This document shows positions 15,462 through 27,310 of a DNA stretch of 40,000 nt, one piece after another. The notes under the pieces were generated by a model, which was given only the letters and a program-made list of their open reading frames with translations, was not told the DNA's origin and did not search any database. This stretch comes from an uncultured Bacteroidota bacterium (lineage in GTDB: Bacteria > Bacteroidota > Ignavibacteria > UBA10030). Made by a program: the position numbers and the translations under genes. Location: positions 99,500 through 139,499 of the forward strand of contig CAVUAC010000051.1 in the NCBI GenBank assembly GCA_963739335.1, read 5' to 3'. Numbering within the stretch: the first letter of the stretch is position 1; each line of letters opens with the position of its first letter.

Positions 15462-16612
15462 CTAGTGCCAGTTCCAAAAAATAAGGTTGTACTTCGTTGA
15501 GGCGTTTAGCACATTAGAGGAGCCACAAAAGAGGAGGCCCGACAATGTGCTTGTATGTTCGTACTTTGAAACTGAAGGAAGGCCGGAAGATCCAAGCCAT
15601 CCTGCGCCGTGGAAAGAATCGCACGGCGATACGGCGTGCACAGGTGATCCTGATGTCTGCGCAAGAGATGCGGGTCAAGGGAATAGCATTGCAGACCTAC
15701 TTGCATCCTGAATACGTTCGGCGGCTCATTCGGCGGTTCAATACCGAAGGACTGCAATTGTTTCAAGAGCGTCCTGGCCGTGGTCGTCCCGGCGAGTTCT
15801 CCGAAGAGATCAAGGCCGAGATCGCAGAAATCGCCCAATGTCCACCCTCGTTGTTGCATCAACCGTATAGCCGATGGTCGCTGGAGAAGCTTCAGGTCTA
15901 TCTGATCAAGACAAAGGTTGTATCGAAGATCAGTATAGAGACCTTACGAACAATCCTCAAAGAGCAACGTGTCAGCCACCAGCGAACCAAGACGTGGAAA
16001 GAGTCAAATGACCCAGACTTTGACGTTAAAAAAAACGAGTGACACGGCTGTACCGGAAACGTCCCAAGGGTTCGCGTGTTGTTTGCTTTGACGAATTTGG
16101 CCCGTTTGAACTGCGTCCGCAGTATGGAATGCACTGGGCACAACGGCGGCATCCGCAACGTCTGCCTGCGACCTACACTCGCCTCCACGGGGTCAGGCAC
16201 TTGCTGGCGTTCTTTGATGTCCACCGTGATCAGTTCTGGGGATACTTCTTTCAGCGCAAGCGCTGGCAAGAGACTCTTCGTGCGTTCAAACGCTTACGCA
16301 AACACTATCCCCGACGAGAACGAATCTATCTTATTCTGGATAACTTTTCGCCCCATAAGCGTCCGGAGATACGACGCTGGGTGCGAGAGAACAATGTTCG
16401 CCTCGTCTGGACGCCGACCAACGCTTCATGGCTCAATCGGATCGAATGCCAGTTCACCGAAATCAGGAAGTTCAGTATCGACGACACCTATCACAGGACG
16501 CATCGCCAGCTTCAGCGCGCCGTCCGTAGGTTCATCCGCTACCGCAACAAGCGGCAACGCAGTAAGAAGGCAAAAAAGAAAACGCAACCTTAATTATTAG
16601 ACCCAGTACTAG
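15462..16612 (+). mobile_element. IS630/Tc1-mariner-family insertion sequence (~1.15 kb) with 27-bp imperfect terminal inverted repeats and TA flanks
   Basis: Left end CTAGTGCCAGTTCCAAAAAATAAGGTT (15462..15488) matches the reverse complement of the right end (16586..16612), CTAGTACTGGGTCTAATAATTAAGGTT, at 20/27 positions. TA is present at both junctions (15463-64 and 16610-11), the IS630 target duplication. The size and the DDE transposase fit the family. Confidence 0.8.
15545..16593 (+). CDS. IS630-family DDE transposase in two frames (orfA 15545..16042, orfB frame open from 16030); -1 shift at the A8 run 16028..16035
   Basis: orfA carries HTH/winged-helix domains (RRAQVILMSAQEMRVKGIALQ; RWSLEKLQVYLI...ISIETLRTIL). 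orfB carries the DD(35)E core (VVCFDEFGP ... LILDNFSPHK ... ASWLNRIECQF). The frames overlap on GTT AAA AAA AAC (an A AAA AAC slippery motif). Confidence 0.85.
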
Positions 16613-19064: not shown

Positions 19065-19568
19065 GGGTTTTCCTACTCCGGGAATTGGCAGCTGAGTTTT
19101 TGAGAAAATAACGGGGGGTGCGTTGTCAGATCACTTCCCGCGTTGCCGGGAAACATATCAATTACTTTGCCGAAAGGCAACTTAAGCGAAGCACTATCCG
19201 GCGATTGTCAACAGTGAGAAGCCCGAAAATACAGCTTGCGGAGACAATTTGTGAGGCCACCCTGTTAAACGAGAGGATCCACTTCTGCATTCGAAATTCA
19301 GCGTTCGGTGTTCGACATTCATCGGGGCGCGATCCAAACGGAACGAGCCTGGGGAATATCCAATAACGAACGCCCAATCATGAATGATGAAGTGGATCGC
19401 CCAGCTGTCGGGGTGAGAGCATTCCCCGCCCGCTTGACCGCAGGCGGTCGGGCGGGGAACCTCCGGTCCCCTGTTCGAAATTGTCCGGCGAGCACGTTCT
19501 TAGCGAGCCGTCGACAATTTCAGAATCCCCGTCTGTTTTTCAGACGGGACGCCCATCACTCAGCATTG

Positions 19569-19643
19569 TCGGGGTGACAGGATTCGAACCTGCGACCCCC
19601 TGCGCCCAAGGCAGGTGCGCTAACCGGACTGCGCTACACCCCG
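19569..19643 (-). tRNA. tRNA-Pro (anticodon UGG), 75 nt, CCA not encoded
   Basis: The minus strand reads CGGGGTG TA GCGC AGTCCGGTTA GCGC A CCTGC CTTGGGC GCAGG GGGTC GCAGG TTCGAAT CCTGT CACCCCG A. It folds as a full cloverleaf, the anticodon loop CT-TGG-GC gives Pro, and the T-loop is TTCGAAT. Confidence 0.92.
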
Positions 19644-19645
19644 AA
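19601..19645. repeat. attL: copy 1 of a perfect 45-bp direct repeat (tRNA-Pro positions 1-43 plus 2 upstream nt)
   Basis: TGCGCCCAAGGCAGGTGCGCTAACCGGACTGCGCTACACCCCGAA is identical to 27266..27310. The bases on both sides differ (C/T before, G/A after). Confidence 0.9.
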
Positions 19646-20044
19646 GAAAATCAAAGGTTTTTTGACAGTTTTTCTTCCCTCAACGTTATGAAATTGCTAT
19701 TTGTCATTAGCAATTTTATTAGCACCTCATAACGTCAAGAACGCTGAAATGGAACTGCTTGTTTTTTGTTTTTTGCAGAAATTTGACAACGAGAATTCTT
19801 GCTACTTCTGTAAGTTACAGAAAAAGACTCCTCATATCAAGGGGCATTTTCCTGTAAGTTCTACACGCATGAGAAAAGGAATCACCATTTCTTTAACTCC
19901 TTGTCGTCACGAAGGCTTCGAGCAAGCCCATCGTATGCCAAGCGAATAGGGGTTGTGTACCACTATTCTGCTGTCTAACTTATAGCCAGATTCTTGATTG
20001 AGTCTGGCTTTCTTGTGGTCAGAACAGCGTGTGTTACGACTGGT

Positions 20045-20593
20045 ATGAAATCAGAAATGGATTCTGAGTTCGAGGAATCATTGCATGAATTGCTTGGTCA
20101 GACCCCATCCGCCTGGGTAGAGCAAGCCGAGTGTCTTAGGATATCAGCAAAACTACACTGGACTAAGTTGATGGAGCTTGAGACTCTGTCGCCAACACTC
20201 CCGGGAGTTCGTGTACAAACGCTGGCTTGCATAGATTCGTATATGTTACTGACGGGTTTATCGTTTGAGGTACTCATTAAGGGAGTTCACATTTCAAAAA
20301 CGCCTAATCTGTCCGTTGAGCAACGATTCAATGAATGGGACAAATATCGTGGCGGGCATGGCATATCAACACTGATAGACTTAGTTGACTCAATTTCTCT
20401 TGAAGAAAAGGAGATGCTCAAACGACTAGAAGAATTTACCCAATGGGCAGGCAGATATCCTATACCAAAGAGAGTGCATACATACTGCAACAGTAAGGAA
20501 AAGCATTTACTTTCAGTCAATACTCGGGACCCAATTTTATGTGACGCTCTTTTCAAGCGATTATCGGCCATGATAAAGACCACGAACCAATAA
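20045..20593 (+). CDS. hypothetical all-alpha protein, possibly HEPN-fold-like (island cargo gene 1)
   Basis: The ORF 19994..20593 is shortened to the first ATG at 20045, because a hairpin at 19984..20009 overlaps the TTG start. Motif layout LLTGLSFEVLIKGV ... YRGGHGISTLIDLV ... FTQWAGRYPIP resembles HEPN-type four-helix proteins. No canonical Rx4-6H is seen. Confidence 0.45.
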   Translation: MKSEMDSEFEESLHELLGQTPSAWVEQAECLRISAKLHWTKLMELETLSPTLPGVRVQTLACIDSYMLLTGLSFEVLIKGVHISKTPNLSVEQRFNEWDKYRGGHGISTLIDLVDSISLEEKEMLKRLEEFTQWAGRYPIPKRVHTYCNSKEKHLLSVNTRDPILCDALFKRLSAMIKTTNQ

Positions 20594-20645
20594 TGTCTGC
20601 CGCCGACTTAGGCTTTCAATTGGCTGACTTACAAGGAAGATTCCA

Positions 20646-21452
20646 ATGCCTGACGAGAACAAGAAATCATTCATAAATATCAGTTCCAATGTGCTATTCC
20701 ATTTCACCGGGAGTCTTGACAATCTGAAAAATATATTACGCAATGATTTTTCTCCCCGCTACTGTCCAGAATACGACCCACAAGAGTCAACGGTCGCCCA
20801 CTTGGAGAAGGGAGCACCAAAGTTCGCGAGACCTATGGTATGTTTCTGCGACCTACCATTGTTCCTTATCAAGAATCATCTGATTCGCTATGGACCTTAC
20901 GGAATAGGATTGAAGAAAGAATGGGGTATGAAGAAAGGCATTACTCCAGTGCTGTACGTTCATGTTTGGTCTGAAACCCTAAGACCTCTCCAATGGATAC
21001 GTTCTCTAATACCATGGCAACAAGGTGGACCCAATGCCGAGATAGAGGACATCCAAGGCAATGCAGAAAGTGCTGCCAACTGGATAATGTCCTACGCAAA
21101 ACCATATGAAGGTCCTGCATGGAGAAATGATGTGTATGAAGAACAGGTAAGATTCTATGATGAGCGAGAATGGAGATATACACCAGGTTATTCGCTGCGA
21201 GGTTTTGACTTGCCCCGTTGGATTCCGTACACCGCCAAGAAAGACTTGAGCGGCGCGAACTCGGACATGGAAAGTGAATGCAAGTTGAGTTTTACACCAG
21301 GCGACATTCAATATATCATCTTGAAAGAAGAGGATGAAATTGTGCCCTTTATTCCCATCCTCGCGGACATCAAAGAGAAATTCGGACCAGATGAGGTTAG
21401 CAAGGTCACGACAAAGATTATCACAGAAGACCGAATACGGGAAGATATGTAG
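20646..21452 (+). CDS. AbiGi-like protein (putative abortive-infection component; island cargo gene 2)
   Basis: The N-terminus ISSNVLFHFTGSLDNLKNILRNDFSPRYCPEY matches my recollection of the AbiGi family (Pfam PF10899) signature LFHFT...L..IL..GF.PRYC. The SD-like AAGGAAG lies 6 nt upstream. Needs HMM confirmation. Confidence 0.45.
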   Translation: MPDENKKSFINISSNVLFHFTGSLDNLKNILRNDFSPRYCPEYDPQESTVAHLEKGAPKFARPMVCFCDLPLFLIKNHLIRYGPYGIGLKKEWGMKKGITPVLYVHVWSETLRPLQWIRSLIPWQQGGPNAEIEDIQGNAESAANWIMSYAKPYEGPAWRNDVYEEQVRFYDEREWRYTPGYSLRGFDLPRWIPYTAKKDLSGANSDMESECKLSFTPGDIQYIILKEEDEIVPFIPILADIKEKFGPDEVSKVTTKIITEDRIREDM

Positions 21453-21472
21453 TCAACTCAGAGATAAAGTAG

Positions 21473-22084
21473 ATGAACTCCCCGAGTGCAGGCATCTTCA
21501 TTTTTATACTCTACATTATTCTTGTTTGGAGCGGCGTCAAAGCCATCCGTGCCGGGCTCAGACAATTAAACAATCCTAAAGCCGGCTCCCCTACGTCTGA
21601 TTCCACCCTTCAAACGATTTGGTTCAAGTGGTACGGACCGGCTGGACTGATATACGGTGCAATCGCCATCATCAGTGTCATCTTCATGGCGAAATCCGAC
21701 TTTTCTACAGAATACCCTAACATGGTCGTAGGTCTTCAATCAAGAATTAAAGACCTCGAAGAAGAGAACGCATATTTCAGAGCCGTTGTCAAAGATAGCT
21801 CCAAGTATTCACGCTACACTTTCACTGCGGATATTTACCGCGGGTCAACTCCGTTGTTTGGTGGGACAGTCCTATTGACCTATGATGGAGAACATTTCAT
21901 TTTCAAGGGCGTAAAAGGAGTGTCTCGCGACAGAACAGGTCCATTTTATCTTGATACAATTGATTATAAGGACGGCGACAAGTTCTACCTGAAATTGGAT
22001 TCTGACCAGGTCTGGGGAGTCAATGTGTATACTGGATATACTAACAACATTACTCACCTCTTTCTTCAGTTTTACAGGACTTGA
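21473..22084 (+). CDS. membrane protein: two N-terminal TM helices, short coiled coil, beta-rich C-terminal domain (island cargo gene 3)
   Basis: TM1 GIFIFILYIILVWSGV, TM2 GPAGLIYGAIAIISVIFMA, then LQSRIKDLEEENAYFRAVV and a Tyr/Gly-rich domain. Starts 20 nt after gene 2. No family recognised. Confidence 0.55.
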   Translation: MNSPSAGIFIFILYIILVWSGVKAIRAGLRQLNNPKAGSPTSDSTLQTIWFKWYGPAGLIYGAIAIISVIFMAKSDFSTEYPNMVVGLQSRIKDLEEENAYFRAVVKDSSKYSRYTFTADIYRGSTPLFGGTVLLTYDGEHFIFKGVKGVSRDRTGPFYLDTIDYKDGDKFYLKLDSDQVWGVNVYTGYTNNITHLFLQFYRT

Positions 22085-22273
22085 ACCACGGCTTAACCAT
22101 CTACTGGAAAACATTTAGGTACACCCATGTATTTTGACACGGAGAAGTTGAAAGGAATTCTCCCATATGTTGGACCAATTCTCGTACTGTTAGGTTATCT
22201 GAGGCTGGAAATTGATTGTGATTTTTTATGCGGTTAAACAAAATCGTTACAAATTGTCTTATGGGAGATTATT

Positions 22274-22597
22274 ATGAGAATCCTACCTGTTGGATACCTT
22301 ATTCGCGTATCTTCAAAAGAGGGTCACAGTTTTCTTTTGTGCGTAGCGCACGCACTGGATACAGAGGGCAAATTCTTGGTGGCTGATTTTGCTGAATTTA
22401 TTACAACTTATCCAAGTCGGGGTTTCAATATACCTGCTGGTCGGTCCTTCACTTTTCAAGAGGAATTACAGACTAGTGCAAGAACAAGTTGTTTGATACC
22501 TGTGGACAATGAGAACTTATATGCTTGGATTACCGACAAAATGAAAGAAACCTACGGAAAAGATTTGAAGGTAGAGGTAGAACAGATAAAAGAATGA
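22274..22597 (+). CDS. hypothetical protein (island cargo gene 4)
   Basis: 107-aa ORF with GGGAG 6 nt upstream of the ATG, in the same orientation as the cargo genes. No motif recognised. Confidence 0.45.
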   Translation: MRILPVGYLIRVSSKEGHSFLLCVAHALDTEGKFLVADFAEFITTYPSRGFNIPAGRSFTFQEELQTSARTSCLIPVDNENLYAWITDKMKETYGKDLKVEVEQIKE

Positions 22598-23013: not shown

Positions 23014-23271
23014 CTACTTGAGGTTCTCTAACTCTGCCTCAAGGATTGTCAGCCCATAAGCAACCGGGTCAACAATTTCTGACCCGGTTGCGATGCTGTC
23101 GAGAACTGCGGCAAAGACATTCGCTCTCTTCCATACTCCATAAAGGATTGCCTGAGTCTTCTCTGAAGCTCTTCCTTTTCTGTAGGCGTTTTCAATTCCT
23201 CTGTCCTTAAGGAAATAGCTTATATAGAATGGGTTTTTTGGCTCCCAGCTAAGAATACGGAGTACAATCAT
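23014..23271 (-). CDS. hypothetical protein (island backbone)
   Basis: ORF 23014..23331. The first 20 codons (MDLRMDLKMVVRMDLRMVVR) are just the translation of the 12-bp repeat array, so the start is moved to M21 (23271). No family recognised. Confidence 0.4.
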   Translation of the reverse strand: MIVLRILSWEPKNPFYISYFLKDRGIENAYRKGRASEKTQAILYGVWKRANVFAAVLDSIATGSEIVDPVAYGLTILEAELENLK

Positions 23272-23545
23272 TCTTACGACCATTCTCAAATCCATTCTTA
23301 CGACCATTTTCAAATCCATTCTTAAATCCATTCAATTCATTTTCTCTATTCTTTTACATTTTCAACATTCATTAACATTGATAACATCATTGTTTGTCAC
23401 CAAACTGGTCACCATTTGTTCACCAACTTGTTCAATACTTGGTCACCAAGTTGTTCATTATGGAGTCAGTTGTCATCACCATTCTCATCACCATTCTGTT
23501 CACCACTCTGTTTACCACTCTGTTTACCGTTCTGTTTGTGGATTG
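23268..23545. repeat. 12-bp-phased direct-repeat array in three blocks with an AT-rich spacer (iteron-like, candidate origin/operator region)
   Basis: Block 23268..23339 has six 12-mers (TCATTCTTACGA CCATTCTCAAAT CCATTCTTACGA CCATTTTCAAAT CCATTCTTAAAT CCATTCAATTCA). Block 23396..23453 has ~five units with core GTCACCA. Block 23474..23533 has five 12-mers (CATCACCATTCT x2, GTTCACCACTCT, GTTTACCACTCT, GTTTACCGTTCT). An AT-rich stretch lies at 23340..23395. Confidence 0.8.
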
Positions 23546-23870
23546 TTTGATACCATTCCCAGTTCTTTATGGAAATCACCGTGGTTACATTAGTGGTTCT
23601 GAACTCCACCATTTCATGTTCTTTAAGCCATTCCAGGAAAACCCGCACGGTCTTGAAGTTCCACTGCCATCTTTCGGCTAGAGTCTGTTGAGAGTAACAT
23701 AGGTCTCCCGGTTTGAGGTCGATTCCTATTCCCCTCCTAATGAAGACAGTGTGTCTCTTGTGTGAGGCGCAAAGCAACAGGTCTATCCAGGCCTGACACC
23801 TTGTAAATGGCTCGCTAAAATATAGTTCGTTTTCTGTGATTTGTCGGTGAAGCATTATCCATCCTCGCAT
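23466..23870 (-). CDS. replication-organizer / DnaD-like winged-helix protein (island backbone)
   Basis: MRGWIMLHRQITENELYFSEPFTRCQAWIDLLLCASHKRHTVFIRRGIGIDLKPGDLCYSQQTLAERWQWNFKTVRVFLEWLKEHEMV follows a pattern seen in phage/element replication-organizer N-terminal domains: W-I-x-L-H/Y-R-K-I ... AWIDLLL.A ... G ... S...LA..W.W....V..FL..L. The start at 23870 has AAGGAG 5 nt upstream; the ORF track starts at 23942. Confidence 0.55.
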   Translation of the reverse strand: MRGWIMLHRQITENELYFSEPFTRCQAWIDLLLCASHKRHTVFIRRGIGIDLKPGDLCYSQQTLAERWQWNFKTVRVFLEWLKEHEMVEFRTTNVTTVISIKNWEWYQTIHKQNGKQSGKQSGEQNGDENGDDN

Positions 23871-24048
23871 ATTGACTCCTTTTCTTTGGATGCCATTTTC
23901 ATTGTTTCCATCATCTAGGTCTGTTTTTGTTTCAATGGTCAAGTGGCAATGGTCACTTCAGTTGAATTTGTTCAACCACGAGGTCGCACGGTGCAGAGAA
24001 CATAATTCAAATGTGCTGGTTGAACTGTTATTGGTGATTATGAGTCGT

Positions 24049-24483
24049 TCAAGAGTGCGCCATGTGTCTATTTTGCTTTTTCCTTTCTTGTTCCTCAATC
24101 ATTTGCCTAATAGGTGATTTGTCACTCTGCCGTTTTTGCGATTTCTTCCATTCGTCAACTTTGTCCATTCCAAAATCTGACAACCGAAGGTGAAGTTGTT
24201 CGTCCCAACCGAACTCTTGAACTGTAAAACAGTGGGCAATGAAGAATTCCCGACTTCTTTCAAAAATTCTTCCGTCTGAAATACAAAGACGCAATTTGTT
24301 GAAATGTAATTCTTCAATTAACTCCTTCGCAAAACCAGCGGAATTGTACTTTTCAAATATGTTGGCAGCACTCTTCCATATTTCAAGGATGCCGTCTTTC
24401 AGTGTGCCAATCCTGCACCATTCGGCTCCATCTCGTGCTTCGTTACGGAAGAACACCGCACCATCTTTTGCTTTCCGAACCAT
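24049..24483 (-). CDS. hypothetical protein (island backbone)
   Basis: 144-aa ORF with a strong SD (AAGGAGG, 4 nt before the ATG at 24483) and a Lys/Glu-rich C-terminus. No family recognised. Confidence 0.55.
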   Translation of the reverse strand: MVRKAKDGAVFFRNEARDGAEWCRIGTLKDGILEIWKSAANIFEKYNSAGFAKELIEELHFNKLRLCISDGRIFERSREFFIAHCFTVQEFGWDEQLHLRLSDFGMDKVDEWKKSQKRQSDKSPIRQMIEEQERKKQNRHMAHS

Positions 24484-25313: not shown

Positions 25314-26060
25314 TTACTTGCTCTCGACACGAGGCAAAAACTTGGACACATCTAAGACTTTTGAGAGTTTCTTTAACGTGTTAAGACTGGGATAGGTTAA
25401 ACCCCATCTGACATAATACATAGAAGTCGCGCCAGTTCTCTTTTCAAGTTCTGCTCTTGAGATTGATAGTTTCTTCATTTGGTCCCGAATATGATTTGCC
25501 ATCTCCCAATTTCTTAGCGGCATTGACAAAGGTCGTCTCGTGTACCAAGTTCGGATTCTAGAAGGAGGTGGCTCTTTTTCTGGTGGAATCAAATGATACA
25601 TCTCTAGAGCATCTGCGATTATTTTTAATCGTTCAGGTTTCGGATAGAAATATCCTTTGCAATACGCGTAGATGTTCGTTCGGTTTATACCAGTTTTTCG
25701 TGACAATTCCGGTACCGACATATGTAACTTTTCCAATCTGGCGATTAGAGTACCAGCAAAATGTTTATATCGTGGTGTTCTTGCTCTATCTCTCATCAAC
25801 TTCTTCTGATATTGTGCCGCTGTTTCAACCCCTTTCCTGTGGGCTAACTTCTCAAGGTATTGCTCTTGCGTGAAATTGCCTTTTGACTCTCTCCAATGGC
25901 ACACATAATCGTAATATGATTTGAATCCGAGTTTCTTAGCAATTTTGTTCAGATGCTCTGAGTATTTCTCGCCATGCCTCTTACGAAGAACGGCTTGGTA
26001 ATGGTCTCTATTACCAATCTGAATTATGTCTCTCAGATTGAGTCGCTTCTCGCTTTTCAT
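25314..26060 (-). CDS. DNA-binding protein with two XRE-type helix-turn-helix domains (island regulator)
   Basis: Two HTH-like segments are present: MSVPELSRKTGINRTNIYAYCKGYFYPKPERLKIIADAL and LSISRAELEKRTGATSMYYVRWGLTYPSLNTLKKLSKVL. Confidence 0.65.
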   Translation of the reverse strand: MKSEKRLNLRDIIQIGNRDHYQAVLRKRHGEKYSEHLNKIAKKLGFKSYYDYVCHWRESKGNFTQEQYLEKLAHRKGVETAAQYQKKLMRDRARTPRYKHFAGTLIARLEKLHMSVPELSRKTGINRTNIYAYCKGYFYPKPERLKIIADALEMYHLIPPEKEPPPSRIRTWYTRRPLSMPLRNWEMANHIRDQMKKLSISRAELEKRTGATSMYYVRWGLTYPSLNTLKKLSKVLDVSKFLPRVESK

Positions 26061-26149: not shown

Positions 26150-27181
26150 TCAGTTCAATGCAAAAGCAATCCTGTTTACAGCACTGTGCAGTTGACTGCC
26201 CACAAGGTGCGAGTAGATTTGAGTGACCACTACACTCGAATGCCCAAGCAGCTTTTGAACCTCATAGATACTGACTCCATCCTGCACTAGCCAGGTCGCA
26301 AATGTGTGCCTGAGACAGTGGAAATGCAACCGGCCATTCAGTCCCGAAAGGCGTATGTATTTCTTGAACTTATGCGTGACGAATCCGGGCAACAATTGTC
26401 TACCGGCCAGCGCAAAGACATAGTCAGATGCCCCGGCAGTGCAAGATTTCGCTGTCAGCAATTGAATTGCCACATCGTTTAATGGAACCGTCCTTTTCTT
26501 TCCACATTTTACTCTGAATGTCGGGCTGCTATGTATGTGTACCAACCTGCGAGCTAGGTCCACATCTTGCCATCGTAGGTTGATAACCTCAGCCCTCCGC
26601 ATTCCAGTCACAACCGCAAAGACAATAAGCCCCTTGAACCATTCTTCCTTTATGAGGCTGAGAAATTTCTGAAAGTCATCCTTCGTGAAATATGTTGGTT
26701 CGGCTTCCGGCACTCTAACGAGCTGTACCTTGCTAAAGGGATTGCTCTCAACCAGTCTCCATCGCAACGCAACAAAACAAATTGAGCGAAGAGCCCTCAG
26801 TTCAACATTAACGCTCACAGGCGAAACCTCTTTCAACCGCTCCGTCTTGTATTGGTCGACATGCCAAGGTGTAATTTCAACGAGAGTGCAGTTCCCGGTC
26901 ACTTTTTGAAGGTTTCTCAGAGCAACCCGAAACATGTCGACTGTTGCCTTGGCATAGTTCACGCCCGCATAACTGAGAAACTCCTCAGTAAAGACTTGGA
27001 GGGTTTTTACTTTTGGCTTGCTACTAAGGAGGGTTTTGAAATCTGTTAGCTGCTTTAGTGCATCGCTCTTTAATGAACATCCGGTAGACTTCCATCTTTG
27101 TCTACCCTCATCATTGTAGATGATGTACCAGAAACCGTTTGAACGTTTGAAAAGGGAAAGTGAAAGGTGGGATGTGGTCAT
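26150..27181 (-). CDS. int: tyrosine-type site-specific recombinase (phage integrase family)
   Basis: N-terminal SAM-like core-binding domain. Catalytic residues are in TGMRRAEVINLRWQDV (Arg), HCLRHTFATWLV (HxxR) and LLGHSSVVVTQIYSH (His...Tyr). It sits adjacent to attR. Confidence 0.92.
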   Translation of the reverse strand: MTTSHLSLSLFKRSNGFWYIIYNDEGRQRWKSTGCSLKSDALKQLTDFKTLLSSKPKVKTLQVFTEEFLSYAGVNYAKATVDMFRVALRNLQKVTGNCTLVEITPWHVDQYKTERLKEVSPVSVNVELRALRSICFVALRWRLVESNPFSKVQLVRVPEAEPTYFTKDDFQKFLSLIKEEWFKGLIVFAVVTGMRRAEVINLRWQDVDLARRLVHIHSSPTFRVKCGKKRTVPLNDVAIQLLTAKSCTAGASDYVFALAGRQLLPGFVTHKFKKYIRLSGLNGRLHFHCLRHTFATWLVQDGVSIYEVQKLLGHSSVVVTQIYSHLVGSQLHSAVNRIAFALN

Positions 27182-27265: not shown

Positions 27266-27310
27266 TGCGCCCAAGGCAGGTGCGCTAACCGGACTGCGCT
27301 ACACCCCGAA
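27266..27310. repeat. attR: copy 2 of the 45-bp direct repeat (orphan 5' fragment of tRNA-Pro)
   Basis: Identical 45-mer. It has no tRNA 3' half after it and lies 84 nt upstream of the integrase start on the same (minus) strand. Confidence 0.9.

What the first reader, a model, noticed from the sequence alone, without database searches (positions are those of the whole stretch)
20045..22597. Four-gene cargo cassette on the tRNA-Pro island: candidate undescribed abortive-infection/defence module (HEPN-like? + AbiGi-like + 2-TM protein + small protein)
Four co-directional genes occupy the cargo end of the island, opposite in orientation to the int/HTH/rep backbone. A possible 36-codon hydrophobic ORF at 22127..22237 lies among them. 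The N-terminus of gene 2 (ISSNVLFHFTGSLDNLKNILRNDFSPRYCPEY) resembles, from memory, the AbiGi family signature, but there is no AbiGii-type nucleotidyltransferase partner. Gene 1 is instead an all-alpha protein laid out like a HEPN-fold protein (LLTGLSFEVLIKGV ... YRGGHGISTLIDLV ... WAGRYPIP) without a canonical Rx4-6H. Gene 3 is a 2-TM protein with a coiled coil and a beta-rich domain, the kind of membrane effector common in Abi systems. Gene 4 has no recognisable features. I know of no described defence system with this composition. Cargo next to an integrase at a tRNA site is the typical location of anti-phage systems.
Basis: partly seen in the sequence, partly recalled or inferred. Interest (0 to 1): 0.8.

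Follow-up and report, generated by a model that had tools for sequence, protein, structure and literature searches.

The report
Mosaic defence-type cargo, not one system
The four genes are real and sit at one end of a small mobile element inserted in a proline tRNA gene, but they look like a patchwork of separate poorly known accessory genes (a HEPN-type protein, a stand-alone AbiGi-type protein, a membrane protein and an orphan), not a new four-part anti-phage machine.

Summary
Four co-directional ORFs (G1 20057/20045-20593, G2 20646-21452, G3 21473-22084, G4 22274-22597) form the integrase-distal end of a 7.66-kb low-GC island bounded by a perfect 45-bp repeat of tRNA-Pro.

- **G2** is a clear AbiGi-family protein (PF10899 1.9e-30; PADLOC 3e-45). 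The window has no AbiGii.
- **G1** is an all-alpha protein of an unannotated HEPN-superfamily branch with no Rx4-6H motif. Its subfamily aligns by hhalign (97.9%) to a subfamily whose member passes the Pfam HEPN threshold.
- **G3** is a 2-TM protein of a small unannotated family (42 remote homologues).
- **G4** has no detected homologue (its searches were less sensitive than G3's).

The four-gene-system reading is not supported. In about 110 G1-family loci, 7 G3-family loci and about 75 AbiGi loci, the genes do not co-occur. The one exception is a closely related metagenomic element. It shares only a hairpin-G1-G2 block; homology stops at the G2 stop codon and a HEPN_Cthe2314 gene replaces G3/G4.

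G2 belongs to a His-type AbiGi clade: 0 of 55 sampled members are followed by AbiGii. The sampled members lie mostly on viral contigs and plasmids, some beside cI repressors, integrases or other defence genes.

Most likely this is mosaic, defence-island-like cargo. A functional HEPN-AbiGi pair remains possible.

The parts
19568..19643 (-). tRNA-Pro(TGG), intact copy. Its 5' end abuts the island.
   Evidence: ARAGORN; Rfam tRNA 68.3 bits
19601..19645 (.). Left copy of the 45-bp perfect direct repeat (att core). It covers tRNA nt 1-43 plus 2 nt upstream.
   Evidence: the repeat finder family D2, 100% identity
19984..20009 (+). 10-bp-stem hairpin followed by a T-rich tail (terminator-like). It marks the upstream edge of the block shared with L006.
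   Evidence: Terminator scan; RNA fold of 19970-20060 gives -29 kcal/mol, z -2.97; 79% identical to L006 2072-2114. In L006 the stem carries mismatches, judged by eye.
20057..20593 (+). G1: 178-aa all-alpha protein (182 aa if started at 20045). Member of an unannotated HEPN-superfamily branch ('WAGRYPIP' family). Invariant E75, K79, H105, R137, Y138. No Rx4-6H.
   Evidence: 23 close homologues; alignments A1/A2; AF2 pLDDT 80.8; best Foldseek PDB matches are HEPN proteins but E>=0.2; 7/73 relatives hit PF05168, one above the gathering score; hhalign 97.9% to that subfamily
20646..21452 (+). G2: 268-aa AbiGi-family protein of the His-type ('LFHFT') clade that is not linked to AbiGii. Retains H19, Y82 and E173-x-E175.
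   Evidence: PF10899 1.9e-30, PADLOC AbiGi 3e-45, phrog_13416 3.6e-40; NCBIfam AbiGI equivalog only 46 bits against a 300 cut-off; alignment A3; clade cross-tabulation
21473..22084 (+). G3: 203-aa protein with two N-terminal TM helices, a variable coiled-coil linker and a conserved beta-rich C-terminal domain (GD.FF.K...IWGVNVL..LEFY). Member of a small unannotated family.
   Evidence: Only a self hit in the word-seeded search, but 42 homologues (19 below 1e-10) by full phmmer; alignment A4; only coiled-coil noise in Pfam; hydropathy
22127..22237 (+).
   Evidence: No family hits; no TM segment in my scan; not called as a gene on L125
22274..22597 (+). G4: 107-aa ORF with no detected homologue and no recognisable domain.
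   Evidence: Only a self hit among 5.8e9 clusters; no tblastn match in phages or plasmids; weak SH2_1 hit, E 0.032, below cut-off; called as a gene on L125
23014..27181 (-). Island backbone: ORF105 with 12-nt repeats (23014-23331), Phage_rep_org_N-like protein (23466-23942), ORF144 (24049-24483), double-HTH protein (25314-26060), tyrosine integrase (26150-27181).
   Evidence: Pfam; ORF list; repeats D1
27266..27310 (.). Right copy of the 45-bp direct repeat: a truncated 5' fragment of tRNA-Pro next to the integrase.

Best explanation
The region is the accessory end of a 7.66-kb tyrosine-integrase element inserted in tRNA-Pro. It is a mosaic of at least two independently acquired blocks, not one system.

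**Block 1 (19975-21452).** A terminator-like hairpin, then G1 (a stand-alone HEPN-superfamily protein), then G2 (a stand-alone His-type AbiGi-family protein).

**Block 2 (21453 to about 22600).** G3, a 2-TM protein of a small unannotated family, and G4, which has no detected homologue.

**Shown.** Family memberships, island boundaries, lack of co-occurrence, the block boundary at the G2 stop, and purifying selection on G1 and G2.

**Inferred.** Each gene acts on its own as an element-borne, host-expressed accessory function, most probably anti-phage.
- G2 is the best candidate. It belongs to a family with an experimentally proven Abi member. The literature classes the family as ADP-ribosyltransferase-like, and G2 keeps the H/Y/ExE positions. 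Its clade sits where prophage defence genes sit. The likely mechanism is ADP-ribosylation of a phage or host target, triggered by infection, that halts phage development.
- G1 would act as an RNA-binding or RNase HEPN protein that uses a non-canonical E/K/H/R-Y residue set.
- G3 would be a membrane-anchored protein of unknown activity.
For: **Island.** The 45-bp repeat, tRNA, GC dip and integrase/HTH/rep backbone define it.

**G2.** It is AbiGi.
- An HMM built from three annotated AbiGii proteins finds nothing in the whole window.
- Of 68 unique AbiGi-family proteins, 55 carry His at the G2-H19 position and none is followed by AbiGii. Of the 13 with N/K/T, 10 are.
- His-type members lie directly downstream of cI/S24 repressors (L153, L162), and next to an integrase (L151), putAbiC (L136) and a type I R-M S subunit (L132). 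In E. coli IncF plasmids one lies next to Avs4.
- AbiGi is listed among known ART-like families, related to DarT and DUF2971 (PMC12522546). Lactococcal AbiG is a proven Abi triggered by a major tail protein (PMC13064643).

**G1.** It links to HEPN.
- About 110 family loci show no recurrent neighbour and no MNT partner.
- Neighbours are heterogeneous. Defence or mobile genes among them include Mrr_cat, HNH_2, HNH_5, Abi_C, integrases and IS110.

**G3.** Homologues are in unrelated contexts: after a KAP NTPase in L128, before Pyr_redox_2/AraC genes in L126, and among small ORFs in L130. None has AbiGi, G1 or G4 nearby.

**Block boundary.** Window-to-L006 DNA homology covers only 19975-21451, and HEPN_Cthe2314 follows in L006. 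dN/dS is 0.30 for G1 and 0.32 for G2.
Against: - G1 and G2 do stay adjacent across 64%/76% protein divergence, with a shared upstream hairpin. That is also what a functional pair would show.
- The G2-G3 gap is only 20 nt, with no terminator-like site between them, so co-transcription of G2 and G3 is likely.
- No phenotype data exist for any of the four genes or their close relatives.
- The defence flavour of the G1 and G3 neighbourhoods is qualitative, with no control set. Many G1-family neighbours are housekeeping genes.
- The ART fold of G2 could not be verified here: the single-sequence AF2 model failed with pLDDT 29, and the profile search against PDB was empty.
- G4 and G3 context sampling is thin (three informative G3 loci).
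- G4 was searched only with the word-seeded method that also missed all G3 homologues.
Confidence: 0.6

Rival explanations
1. G1 and G2 form a functional two-gene HEPN-plus-AbiGi module, Abi- or toxin-antitoxin-like. G3 and G4 are unrelated passengers. By analogy with HepT/MntA, the ART-like G2 would covalently modify or otherwise hold the HEPN protein in check, or the reverse. Phage infection would release RNase or ADP-ribosylation activity.
For: - The block hairpin-G1-G2 is conserved as a unit between the window and L006. Homology begins at the hairpin and ends exactly at the G2 stop.
- Both genes are under purifying selection.
- The order and orientation are the same, with short intergenic gaps (52 and 116 nt).
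- HEPN genes of another family have been reported in operons with ART-like enzymes and Macro domains (PMC3710099).
- PF05168-type HEPN proteins are classically paired with a modifying enzyme (MNT). G1 keeps an invariant R-Y.
Against: - Only one independent recurrence, in a close relative, so shared ancestry explains it equally well.
- dS differs between the two genes (0.87 against 0.45).
- All other G1-family loci (about 110) lack AbiGi.
- His-type AbiGi loci outside this lineage lack any G1-family gene. None of the ten large neighbours scanned was a HEPN protein.
- Both families therefore function without the other.
- There is no translational coupling, unlike the 2-5 nt gaps seen between AbiGi and AbiGii.
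Confidence: 0.22
2. All four genes, with or without the 36-codon ORF, make up one new multi-component abortive-infection system. G2 and/or G1 would be sensor or effector and G3 a membrane effector.
For: - The genes are co-directional and tightly spaced, opposite to the backbone.
- The G2-G3 gap is 20 nt.
- No predicted strong terminator lies inside the cluster.
- No known system matches the set.
Against: - The closest relative of the G1-G2 block has a different third gene and no G3 or G4.
- G3-family genes never sit with AbiGi or G1 in the loci recovered.
- G4 has no detected homologue.
- TM neighbours of AbiGi are no more frequent than roughly expected: 9/40 downstream and 9/47 upstream by a crude scan.
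Confidence: 0.05
3. The genes are not host defence. They serve the element itself, for example as anti-defence or host-takeover factors (an ART-like enzyme modifying host immunity proteins) or as addiction or maintenance functions.
For: - His-type AbiGi is common on viral contigs and plasmids (67 viral loci).
- In E. coli IncF plasmids one lies beside psiB and a ParB-family gene. From my own knowledge, this leading region is rich in anti-defence genes.
- Phage ARTs such as T4 Alt and Mod modify host targets (established knowledge).
- Neither L. lactis abiGi nor abiGii was toxic in E. coli (PMC3985639).
Against: - The only experimentally studied family member confers phage resistance (PMC13064643).
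- Positions directly downstream of cI-type repressors and beside R-M and AbiC genes are typical of lysogen-expressed defence genes.
Confidence: 0.12

Closest known systems
[quoted passage not shown]
   Same: G2 is a full-length member of the AbiGi family (PF10899; PADLOC AbiGi model covered 8-259 of 260). It shares the invariant PMxCFCD, Y-G and ExEWR motifs and is carried on a mobile element.
   Different: - No AbiGii anywhere in the window.
- Only about 27% identity to lactococcal AbiGI.
- The NCBIfam equivalog model scores 46 bits against a cut-off of 300.
- G2 has His at motif I ('LFHFT'), where AbiGii-linked proteins have N/K/T.
- The neighbours are a HEPN-like gene upstream and a 2-TM gene downstream.
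Stand-alone His-type AbiGi-like proteins of phages, prophages and plasmids (phrog_13416; RefSeq 'AbiGi family protein')
   Same: Same clade signature (H19, T21, Y82, ExE), the same length (about 245-290 aa) and no AbiGii partner. They are carried on mobile elements, some next to integrases, repressors or other defence genes.
   Different: The window copy and L006 are the only ones found with a G1-family HEPN gene immediately upstream. Identity to the sampled viral and plasmid members is 39% or less.
HEPN-T / classical HEPN domain (PF05168) and HEPN-MNT (HepT/MntA) toxin-antitoxin modules
   Same: G1 has an all-alpha bundle whose best PDB matches are HEPN/HepT structures. Its family is connected to PF05168 by profile comparison. 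Stand-alone PF05168 proteins, and versions lacking the canonical His, are known (PMC3710099).
   Different: - No MNT nucleotidyltransferase partner.
- No Rx4-6H: R102 is not conserved in the wider family.
- The conserved set is E75, K79, H105 and R137-Y138 within 'WAGRYPIP'.
- G1 itself hits no Pfam model.
- G1 carries an extra N-terminal helical extension.
DarT-DarG and other ART-toxin modules; pEK499_p136-like HEPN genes in operons with ART-like and Macro genes
   Same: If AbiGi is ART-like, as published profile analyses say, then a HEPN gene next to an ART-like gene has precedent. An ART effector acting on nucleic acid, as DarT does, is a plausible mode of action.
   Different: There is no macrodomain or other ADP-ribose-removing partner. 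The HEPN family is different. The ART fold of G2 was not verified here.
Defence islands and cargo regions of small tRNA-integrated elements and prophages
   Same: Variable accessory genes at one end of an integrase-bearing element. Cargo differs between relatives: G3/G4 here against HEPN_Cthe2314 in L006.
   Different: The element uses the 5' part of the tRNA as its repeat, and the cargo lies beside the intact tRNA, not beside the integrase.

Membership tests
AbiGi protein family (Pfam PF10899 / PADLOC AbiGi) | Score above the curated threshold over the full-length model | tested here: met
   PF10899 gives 106.7 bits against a cut-off of 22.4, profile 1-184 of 185. PADLOC AbiGi gives 3e-45, profile 8-259 of 260.
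AbiGi protein family (Pfam PF10899 / PADLOC AbiGi) | Family-invariant motifs (PMxCFCD, Y-G, D/N-E-x-E-W-R) | tested here: met
   G2 has P63 M64 F67 C68 D69, Y82 G83 and E173 E175 W176 R177.
AbiG two-gene system (AbiGi + AbiGii) | An AbiGii gene immediately downstream of AbiGi | tested here: not met
   G1, G3 and G4 have no PADLOC or Pfam AbiGii hit. An HMM of three annotated AbiGii proteins finds nothing in six frames of the window. G3 against AbiGii by BLASTP gives E 1.7.
AbiG two-gene system (AbiGi + AbiGii) | Orthology to lactococcal AbiGI (NCBIfam NF042957 equivalog) | tested here: not met
   46.1 bits against a cut-off of 300.
AbiG two-gene system (AbiGi + AbiGii) | Abortive-infection phenotype against phage | not testable with these tools
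   Needs a phage challenge of a clone.
HEPN superfamily (G1) | Sequence-profile connection to an established HEPN family | tested here: met
   The link is indirect. G1 itself has no Pfam hit. Its subfamily aligns to the Pseudomonas-type subfamily at hhalign probability 97.9%, E 4.8e-13. A member of that subfamily (L021) scores 25.1 bits on PF05168 against a gathering score of 22. 7 of 73 family members hit PF05168.
HEPN superfamily (G1) | Four-helix up-and-down HEPN fold | tested here: inconclusive
HEPN superfamily (G1) | Rx4-6H catalytic motif | tested here: not met
   G1 has R102-G-G-H105 (Rx2H), and R102 is not conserved in the 73-member family. The conserved residues are E75, K79, H105, R137 and Y138.
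HEPN-MNT toxin-antitoxin module | Adjacent minimal nucleotidyltransferase (MNT) gene | tested here: not met
   G1-family genes have no recurrent neighbour. No NTP_transf_2 appears among the 25 most frequent Pfam families listed for 150 neighbours (94 families matched in all, so a single MNT is not excluded). There is none in the window cluster.
ADP-ribosyltransferase superfamily (G2) | ART fold with H/R - Y/S - E motif triad | tested here: inconclusive
Multi-gene defence system (any) | Conserved co-occurrence and adjacency of the component genes across lineages | tested here: not met
   G3 and G4 are absent from 117 G1-family loci, and AbiGi occurs only in the L006 group. G3-family loci lack the other genes. 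No G1- or G3-family gene occurs in the AbiGi loci outside the window's own lineage.
Integrative element at a tRNA gene | Direct repeats derived from the tRNA, bounding a block that includes a tyrosine integrase | tested here: met
   45-bp perfect repeat; integrase PF00589 1.5e-35; GC dip.

The most novel reading that the evidence does not exclude
The conserved hairpin-G1-G2 block is a previously undescribed two-gene immune or toxin-antitoxin module. In it, an ART-fold AbiGi enzyme and a non-canonical HEPN protein regulate each other by covalent modification, an ADP-ribosylation analogue of the AMPylation-based HepT/MntA type VII system. In this lineage the HEPN protein would replace AbiGii as the AbiGi partner. 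As a corollary, the His-type AbiGi clade would be catalytically active ARTs, whereas AbiGii-linked AbiGi proteins would have lost the motif-I histidine.
Probability: 0.15. Interest if true: 0.65.

Novelty: new member of a known kind. Interest (0 to 1): 0.33.

Why it matters
As proposed, a new four-component Abi system would have been a notable addition to the anti-phage repertoire. The evidence instead points to ordinary mosaic cargo.

Three by-products are still useful:
- **AbiGi splits into two clades.** One is His-type and never followed by AbiGii in this sample (0 of 55). Many of its sampled members lie on viral contigs and plasmids. The other has N/K/T at that position and is tightly coupled to AbiGii. 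This bears on how the still-unexplained AbiG system works, and on the questionable 'antitoxin' label in the databases.
- **G1 defines an unannotated HEPN branch.** It has a distinctive invariant WAGRYPIP motif, no Rx4-6H and no MNT partner.
- **G3 defines an unannotated 2-TM family.**

All three are cheap candidates for phage-challenge screens.

Tried and rejected
**Searches that found nothing.**
- Word-seeded homology searches for G3 and G4 returned only self hits. For G3 this was a sensitivity artefact, corrected by full phmmer with 42 hits.
- Profile searches against PDB with the G1 alignments A1 and A2, the A2 consensus and the AbiGi alignment A3 found nothing relevant.
- The G1-family consensus sequences scanned against Pfam gave no HEPN hit. 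Only individual distant members hit.
- tblastn of G1, G3 and G4 against plasmids, and of G4 against phages, gave no match.
- A viral scan with G2 alone found no pattern match. The G3 alignment was too divergent to build patterns.
- Foldseek of the G1 model against BFVD gave nothing significant.
- Rfam found only the tRNA.
- Promoter and terminator scans gave counts at chance level.

**Structure attempts.**
The single-sequence model was unusable at pLDDT 29, so no fold search was run on it.

**Ideas tested and rejected.**
- G3 as a degenerate AbiGii or HEPN_Cthe2314: rejected, with BLASTP E of 1.7 or worse.
- G1 as a backbone gene of this island family: rejected. The backbone proteins are not found in G1-family loci apart from generic integrases.
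- A TM protein as the regular AbiGi partner: not supported.

**Not achieved.**
- Source organism: exact look-ups gave no names, and flanking proteins were not found.
- tRNA adjacency of G1 or G3 relatives: no tRNA genes in 27 loci.


Full report
**1. What is there**

The window holds one tRNA, tRNA-Pro(TGG), at 19568-19643 on the minus strand. A perfect 45-bp direct repeat lies at 19601-19645 and 27266-27310. It bounds a 7.66-kb segment with GC 0.42-0.45, against about 0.52 outside.

On the minus strand the segment carries five genes:
- a tyrosine integrase (26150-27181, PF00589 1.5e-35);
- a double-HTH protein (25314-26060);
- an unknown ORF (24049-24483);
- a Phage_rep_org_N-like protein (23466-23942);
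- a repeat-containing ORF (23014-23331).

On the plus strand, at the end far from the integrase, lie the four ORFs of the finding:
- G1 20045/20057-20593;
- G2 20646-21452;
- G3 21473-22084;
- G4 22274-22597.

The conserved start of G1 is the ATG at 20057. The 36-codon ORF at 22127-22237 has nothing to support it.

**2. G2 is an AbiGi-family protein of the AbiGii-independent clade**

G2 matches four libraries:

| Library and model | Result |
|---|---|
| Pfam AbiGi (PF10899) | E 1.9e-30, 106.7 bits against a cut-off of 22.4 |
| PADLOC AbiGi | 3e-45 over the whole model |
| phrog_13416 | 3.6e-40 |
| NCBIfam lactococcal AbiGI equivalog | 46 bits against a cut-off of 300 |

G2 is thus a family member, not an orthologue of lactococcal AbiGI.

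Annotated plasmids show two situations.
- AbiGi followed within a few bases by AbiGii: Lactococcus, Enterococcus and Bacillus.
- AbiGi without AbiGii:
  - E. coli IncF plasmids, next to Avs4 and the psiB/ParB-family genes;
  - Klebsiella and Shewanella plasmids;
  - E. coli phage-plasmids, where a 403-aa protein follows that shows no detectable similarity to AbiGii.

An alignment-based scan of viral contigs added 67 loci. I aligned 68 unique family proteins to one profile and cross-tabulated them.

| Residue at the G2-H19 position | Proteins | Followed by AbiGii |
|---|---|---|
| His ('LFHFT') | 55 | 0 |
| Asn/Lys/Thr | 13 | 10 |

Of the other three in the second row, one is at a contig edge. 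The other two are followed at 2 nt by proteins the AbiGii model did not detect.

Y82, C68, D69, E173, E175 and R177 are essentially invariant. All of these except Y82 were part of the search patterns, so their invariance is partly by ascertainment.

His-type genes have these neighbours:
- directly downstream of cI/S24 repressors on the same strand (L153, L162);
- next to an integrase (L151);
- next to a putAbiC protein (L136);
- next to a type I R-M specificity subunit (L132).

Missing AbiGii is therefore the rule for G2's clade, and its typical setting is a mobile element, in several cases beside repressor, integrase or defence genes.

The literature adds four points.
- The AbiGi family is listed among known ART-like families and is related to DarT and DUF2971, with a poorly conserved motif-I His, a conserved Tyr and an ExE motif (PMC12522546).
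- A 2026 review found no structural match for AbiGi or AbiGii. [quoted passage not shown]
- Lactococcal abiGi and abiGii were each non-toxic in E. coli (PMC3985639). The 'antitoxin/toxin' labels are therefore unproven.

I could not verify the ART fold. The single-sequence model failed at pLDDT 29. The PDB profile search was empty.

**3. G1 is a stand-alone, non-canonical HEPN-superfamily protein**

G1 has no hit in Pfam, PADLOC, NCBIfam or PHROGs. It has 23 close homologues of about 179 aa. Their invariant motifs are GLSFE.LIKG, R-x-G-H-G-I and RLEE..WAGRYPIP.

Genome and metagenome scans gave 109 more loci from many phyla. In the 73-member alignment the invariant residues are W24, E75, K79, H105 and W134-A-G-R-Y-P-I-P. 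WAGRYPIP was the search pattern, so its invariance is partly by construction. R102 is not conserved, so there is no Rx4-6H motif.

The AF2 model is all-alpha, with pLDDT 80.8 and pTM 0.78. Foldseek against PDB gives no significant hit. The top of the list is nonetheless enriched in HEPN/HepT proteins: 7bxo_G, 1wol (probability 0.97, TMt 0.63), 4nqf, 6m6w, 5yep, 1jog and 7ae2.

The sequence link to HEPN runs in steps.
- 7 of 73 family members hit PF05168 HEPN.
- The Pseudomonas capeferrum member (L021) scores 25.1 bits against a gathering score of 22, over profile positions 31-111.
- hhalign of G1's subfamily against that Pseudomonas-type subfamily gives 97.9% probability, E 4.8e-13. It aligns the E..K helix, the His and WAGRYPIP.

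Anantharaman et al. 2013 describe PF05168 ('HEPN-T') as having stand-alone versions, and versions in which the canonical His is replaced and another His may contribute (PMC3710099).

There is no MNT partner and no recurrent neighbour. Neighbours are heterogeneous.
- Defence or mobile genes include Mrr_cat, HNH_2, HNH_5, Abi_C, DUF5677, integrases and IS110.
- Many others are housekeeping genes.

**4. G3 and G4**

The word-seeded search found only self hits for both. A full phmmer scan of 1.84 billion representatives found 42 G3 homologues. Of these, 19 are below 1e-10. They share at most 39% identity with G3 and are about 200 aa long.

The G3 alignment shows two TM helices, a variable coiled-coil linker and a conserved C-terminal domain. 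Pfam returns only coiled-coil noise for the family. G3 is therefore a real gene of an unannotated family.

The retrievable G3 contexts are:
- after a KAP NTPase (L128);
- before Pyr_redox_2 and AraC genes (L126);
- among small ORFs (L130);
- two short contigs.

None of them contains AbiGi, a G1-family gene or G4. G3 is unrelated to AbiGii and to HEPN_Cthe2314.

G4 has no homologue in the searches run and no domain. Those searches were less sensitive than the one that recovered the G3 family.

**5. Do the genes belong together?**

phmmer of G1-G4 against all ORFs of 117 G1-family loci finds AbiGi only in L006/L007/L008/L038, which are copies of one metagenomic sequence. It finds G3 and G4 nowhere. 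Clustering the neighbours shows no recurrent partner.

In L006 the order is G1 homologue (64% identity), AbiGi (76%), then HEPN_Cthe2314. DNA homology between the window and L006 covers 19975-21451 only:
- it starts at a terminator-like hairpin (19984-20009, followed by a T-rich tail);
- it runs through G1, the intergenic spacer and G2;
- it stops exactly at the G2 stop codon.

dN/dS is 0.30 for G1 and 0.32 for G2. dS differs, at 0.87 against 0.45.

So hairpin-G1-G2 is one evolutionary block, and G3/G4 are a different, replaceable block. Whether G1 and G2 also work together cannot be decided from a single recurrence in a close relative. Both families otherwise occur without each other, which favours independent function.

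**6. Most likely explanation and rivals**

| Reading | Confidence |
|---|---|
| Mosaic, defence-island-like cargo of independent accessory genes | 0.6 |
| G1+G2 are a functional HEPN-ART pair, by analogy with HepT/MntA | 0.22 |
| The genes serve the element itself (anti-defence or maintenance) | 0.12 |
| One four-gene system | 0.05 |

In the mosaic reading, G2 is the strongest anti-phage candidate. It would be an ART-like enzyme triggered by infection, which is an inference. G1 would be a non-canonical HEPN RNA-binding protein or RNase, and G3 a membrane protein of unknown role.

For the pair reading, HEPN genes of another family have been reported in operons with ART-like and Macro genes.

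**7. Novelty and score**

The cluster is not a new kind of system. It contains a member of a known, already annotated protein family (AbiGi), a new branch of a known superfamily (HEPN), an unannotated membrane-protein family and an ORF with no detected homologue, all on an ordinary integrative element.

I rate it 'new member of a known kind', with interest 0.33. The residual value lies in three things:
- the His-type against AbiGii-linked split of AbiGi;
- the WAGRYPIP HEPN family;
- the untested possibility of a HEPN-AbiGi module.

Noticed in passing
window 19568-19645 and 27266-27310: The island's direct repeat is the 5' part of tRNA-Pro (nt 1-43 plus 2 nt upstream), not the usual 3' part. 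The tRNA's 5' end abuts the island, and the integrase sits next to the truncated 5' fragment. The element must therefore supply the 5' half, and presumably the promoter (19646 to about 19760), of the functional tRNA-Pro.
   Followed up: partly
AbiGi-family loci L118-L197 (plasmids and viral contigs); G2 residue H19: The AbiGi family splits cleanly. 55 of 68 unique proteins have His in 'LFHFT' and none is followed by AbiGii. 13 of 68 have N/K/T ('LFNFM', 'LFKFM') and 10 of them are followed by AbiGii, typically at a gap of 2-5 nt. The classical lactococcal AbiGI lacks the motif-I histidine expected of an active H-Y-E-type ART.
   Followed up: yes
window 19984-20009 (+); L006 2072-2114: A 10-bp-stem hairpin with a T-rich tail lies about 45 nt upstream of the G1 start. 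It is conserved in sequence (79%) in the only related element and marks the exact upstream edge of the shared G1-G2 block. The RNA fold has z -2.97. Its role (terminator/insulator or regulator) is unknown.
   Followed up: partly
window 23263-23333 and 23474-23508: 12-nt tandem repeats (units like TACGACCATTCT / CAAATCCATTCT) lie inside ORF 23014-23331, giving the 'MDLRMVVR' peptide repeats. Related copies lie at the 3' end of the rep-organiser-like gene. They are iteron-like and may be the element's replication origin.
   Followed up: no
L121 (E. coli IncF plasmid NZ_CP133918.1, 64467-65288): A stand-alone His-type AbiGi gene sits beside psiB and a ParB-family gene (the leading region, from my own knowledge) and is adjacent to an Avs4 gene. 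The position is compatible with either a defence or an anti-defence role.
   Followed up: no
L119 4831-6042 (E. coli phage-plasmid NZ_CP061757.1): A 403-aa hypothetical protein follows a His-type AbiGi at a gap of 27 nt. It has AbiGii-like length but no detectable similarity to AbiGii. Its only Pfam hit is weak (HSDR_N_2, E 0.0077). It may be a different partner family.
   Followed up: partly
L130 (metagenome contig), minus strand near 7.5-8.4 kb: Besides the full-length G3 homologue, this locus has two or three weak extra matches (33-34 bits) to the G3-family profile on the opposite strand. This suggests paralogues or fragments of the C-terminal domain.
   Followed up: no
window 15545-16593: Two consecutive ORFs (165 aa and 184 aa, + strand) read like the two halves of an IS630/Tc1-type transposase: an HTH part, then a DDE-like part with '...WTPTNASWLNRIECQF'. 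This judgement is by eye only and the ORFs were not searched.
   Followed up: no
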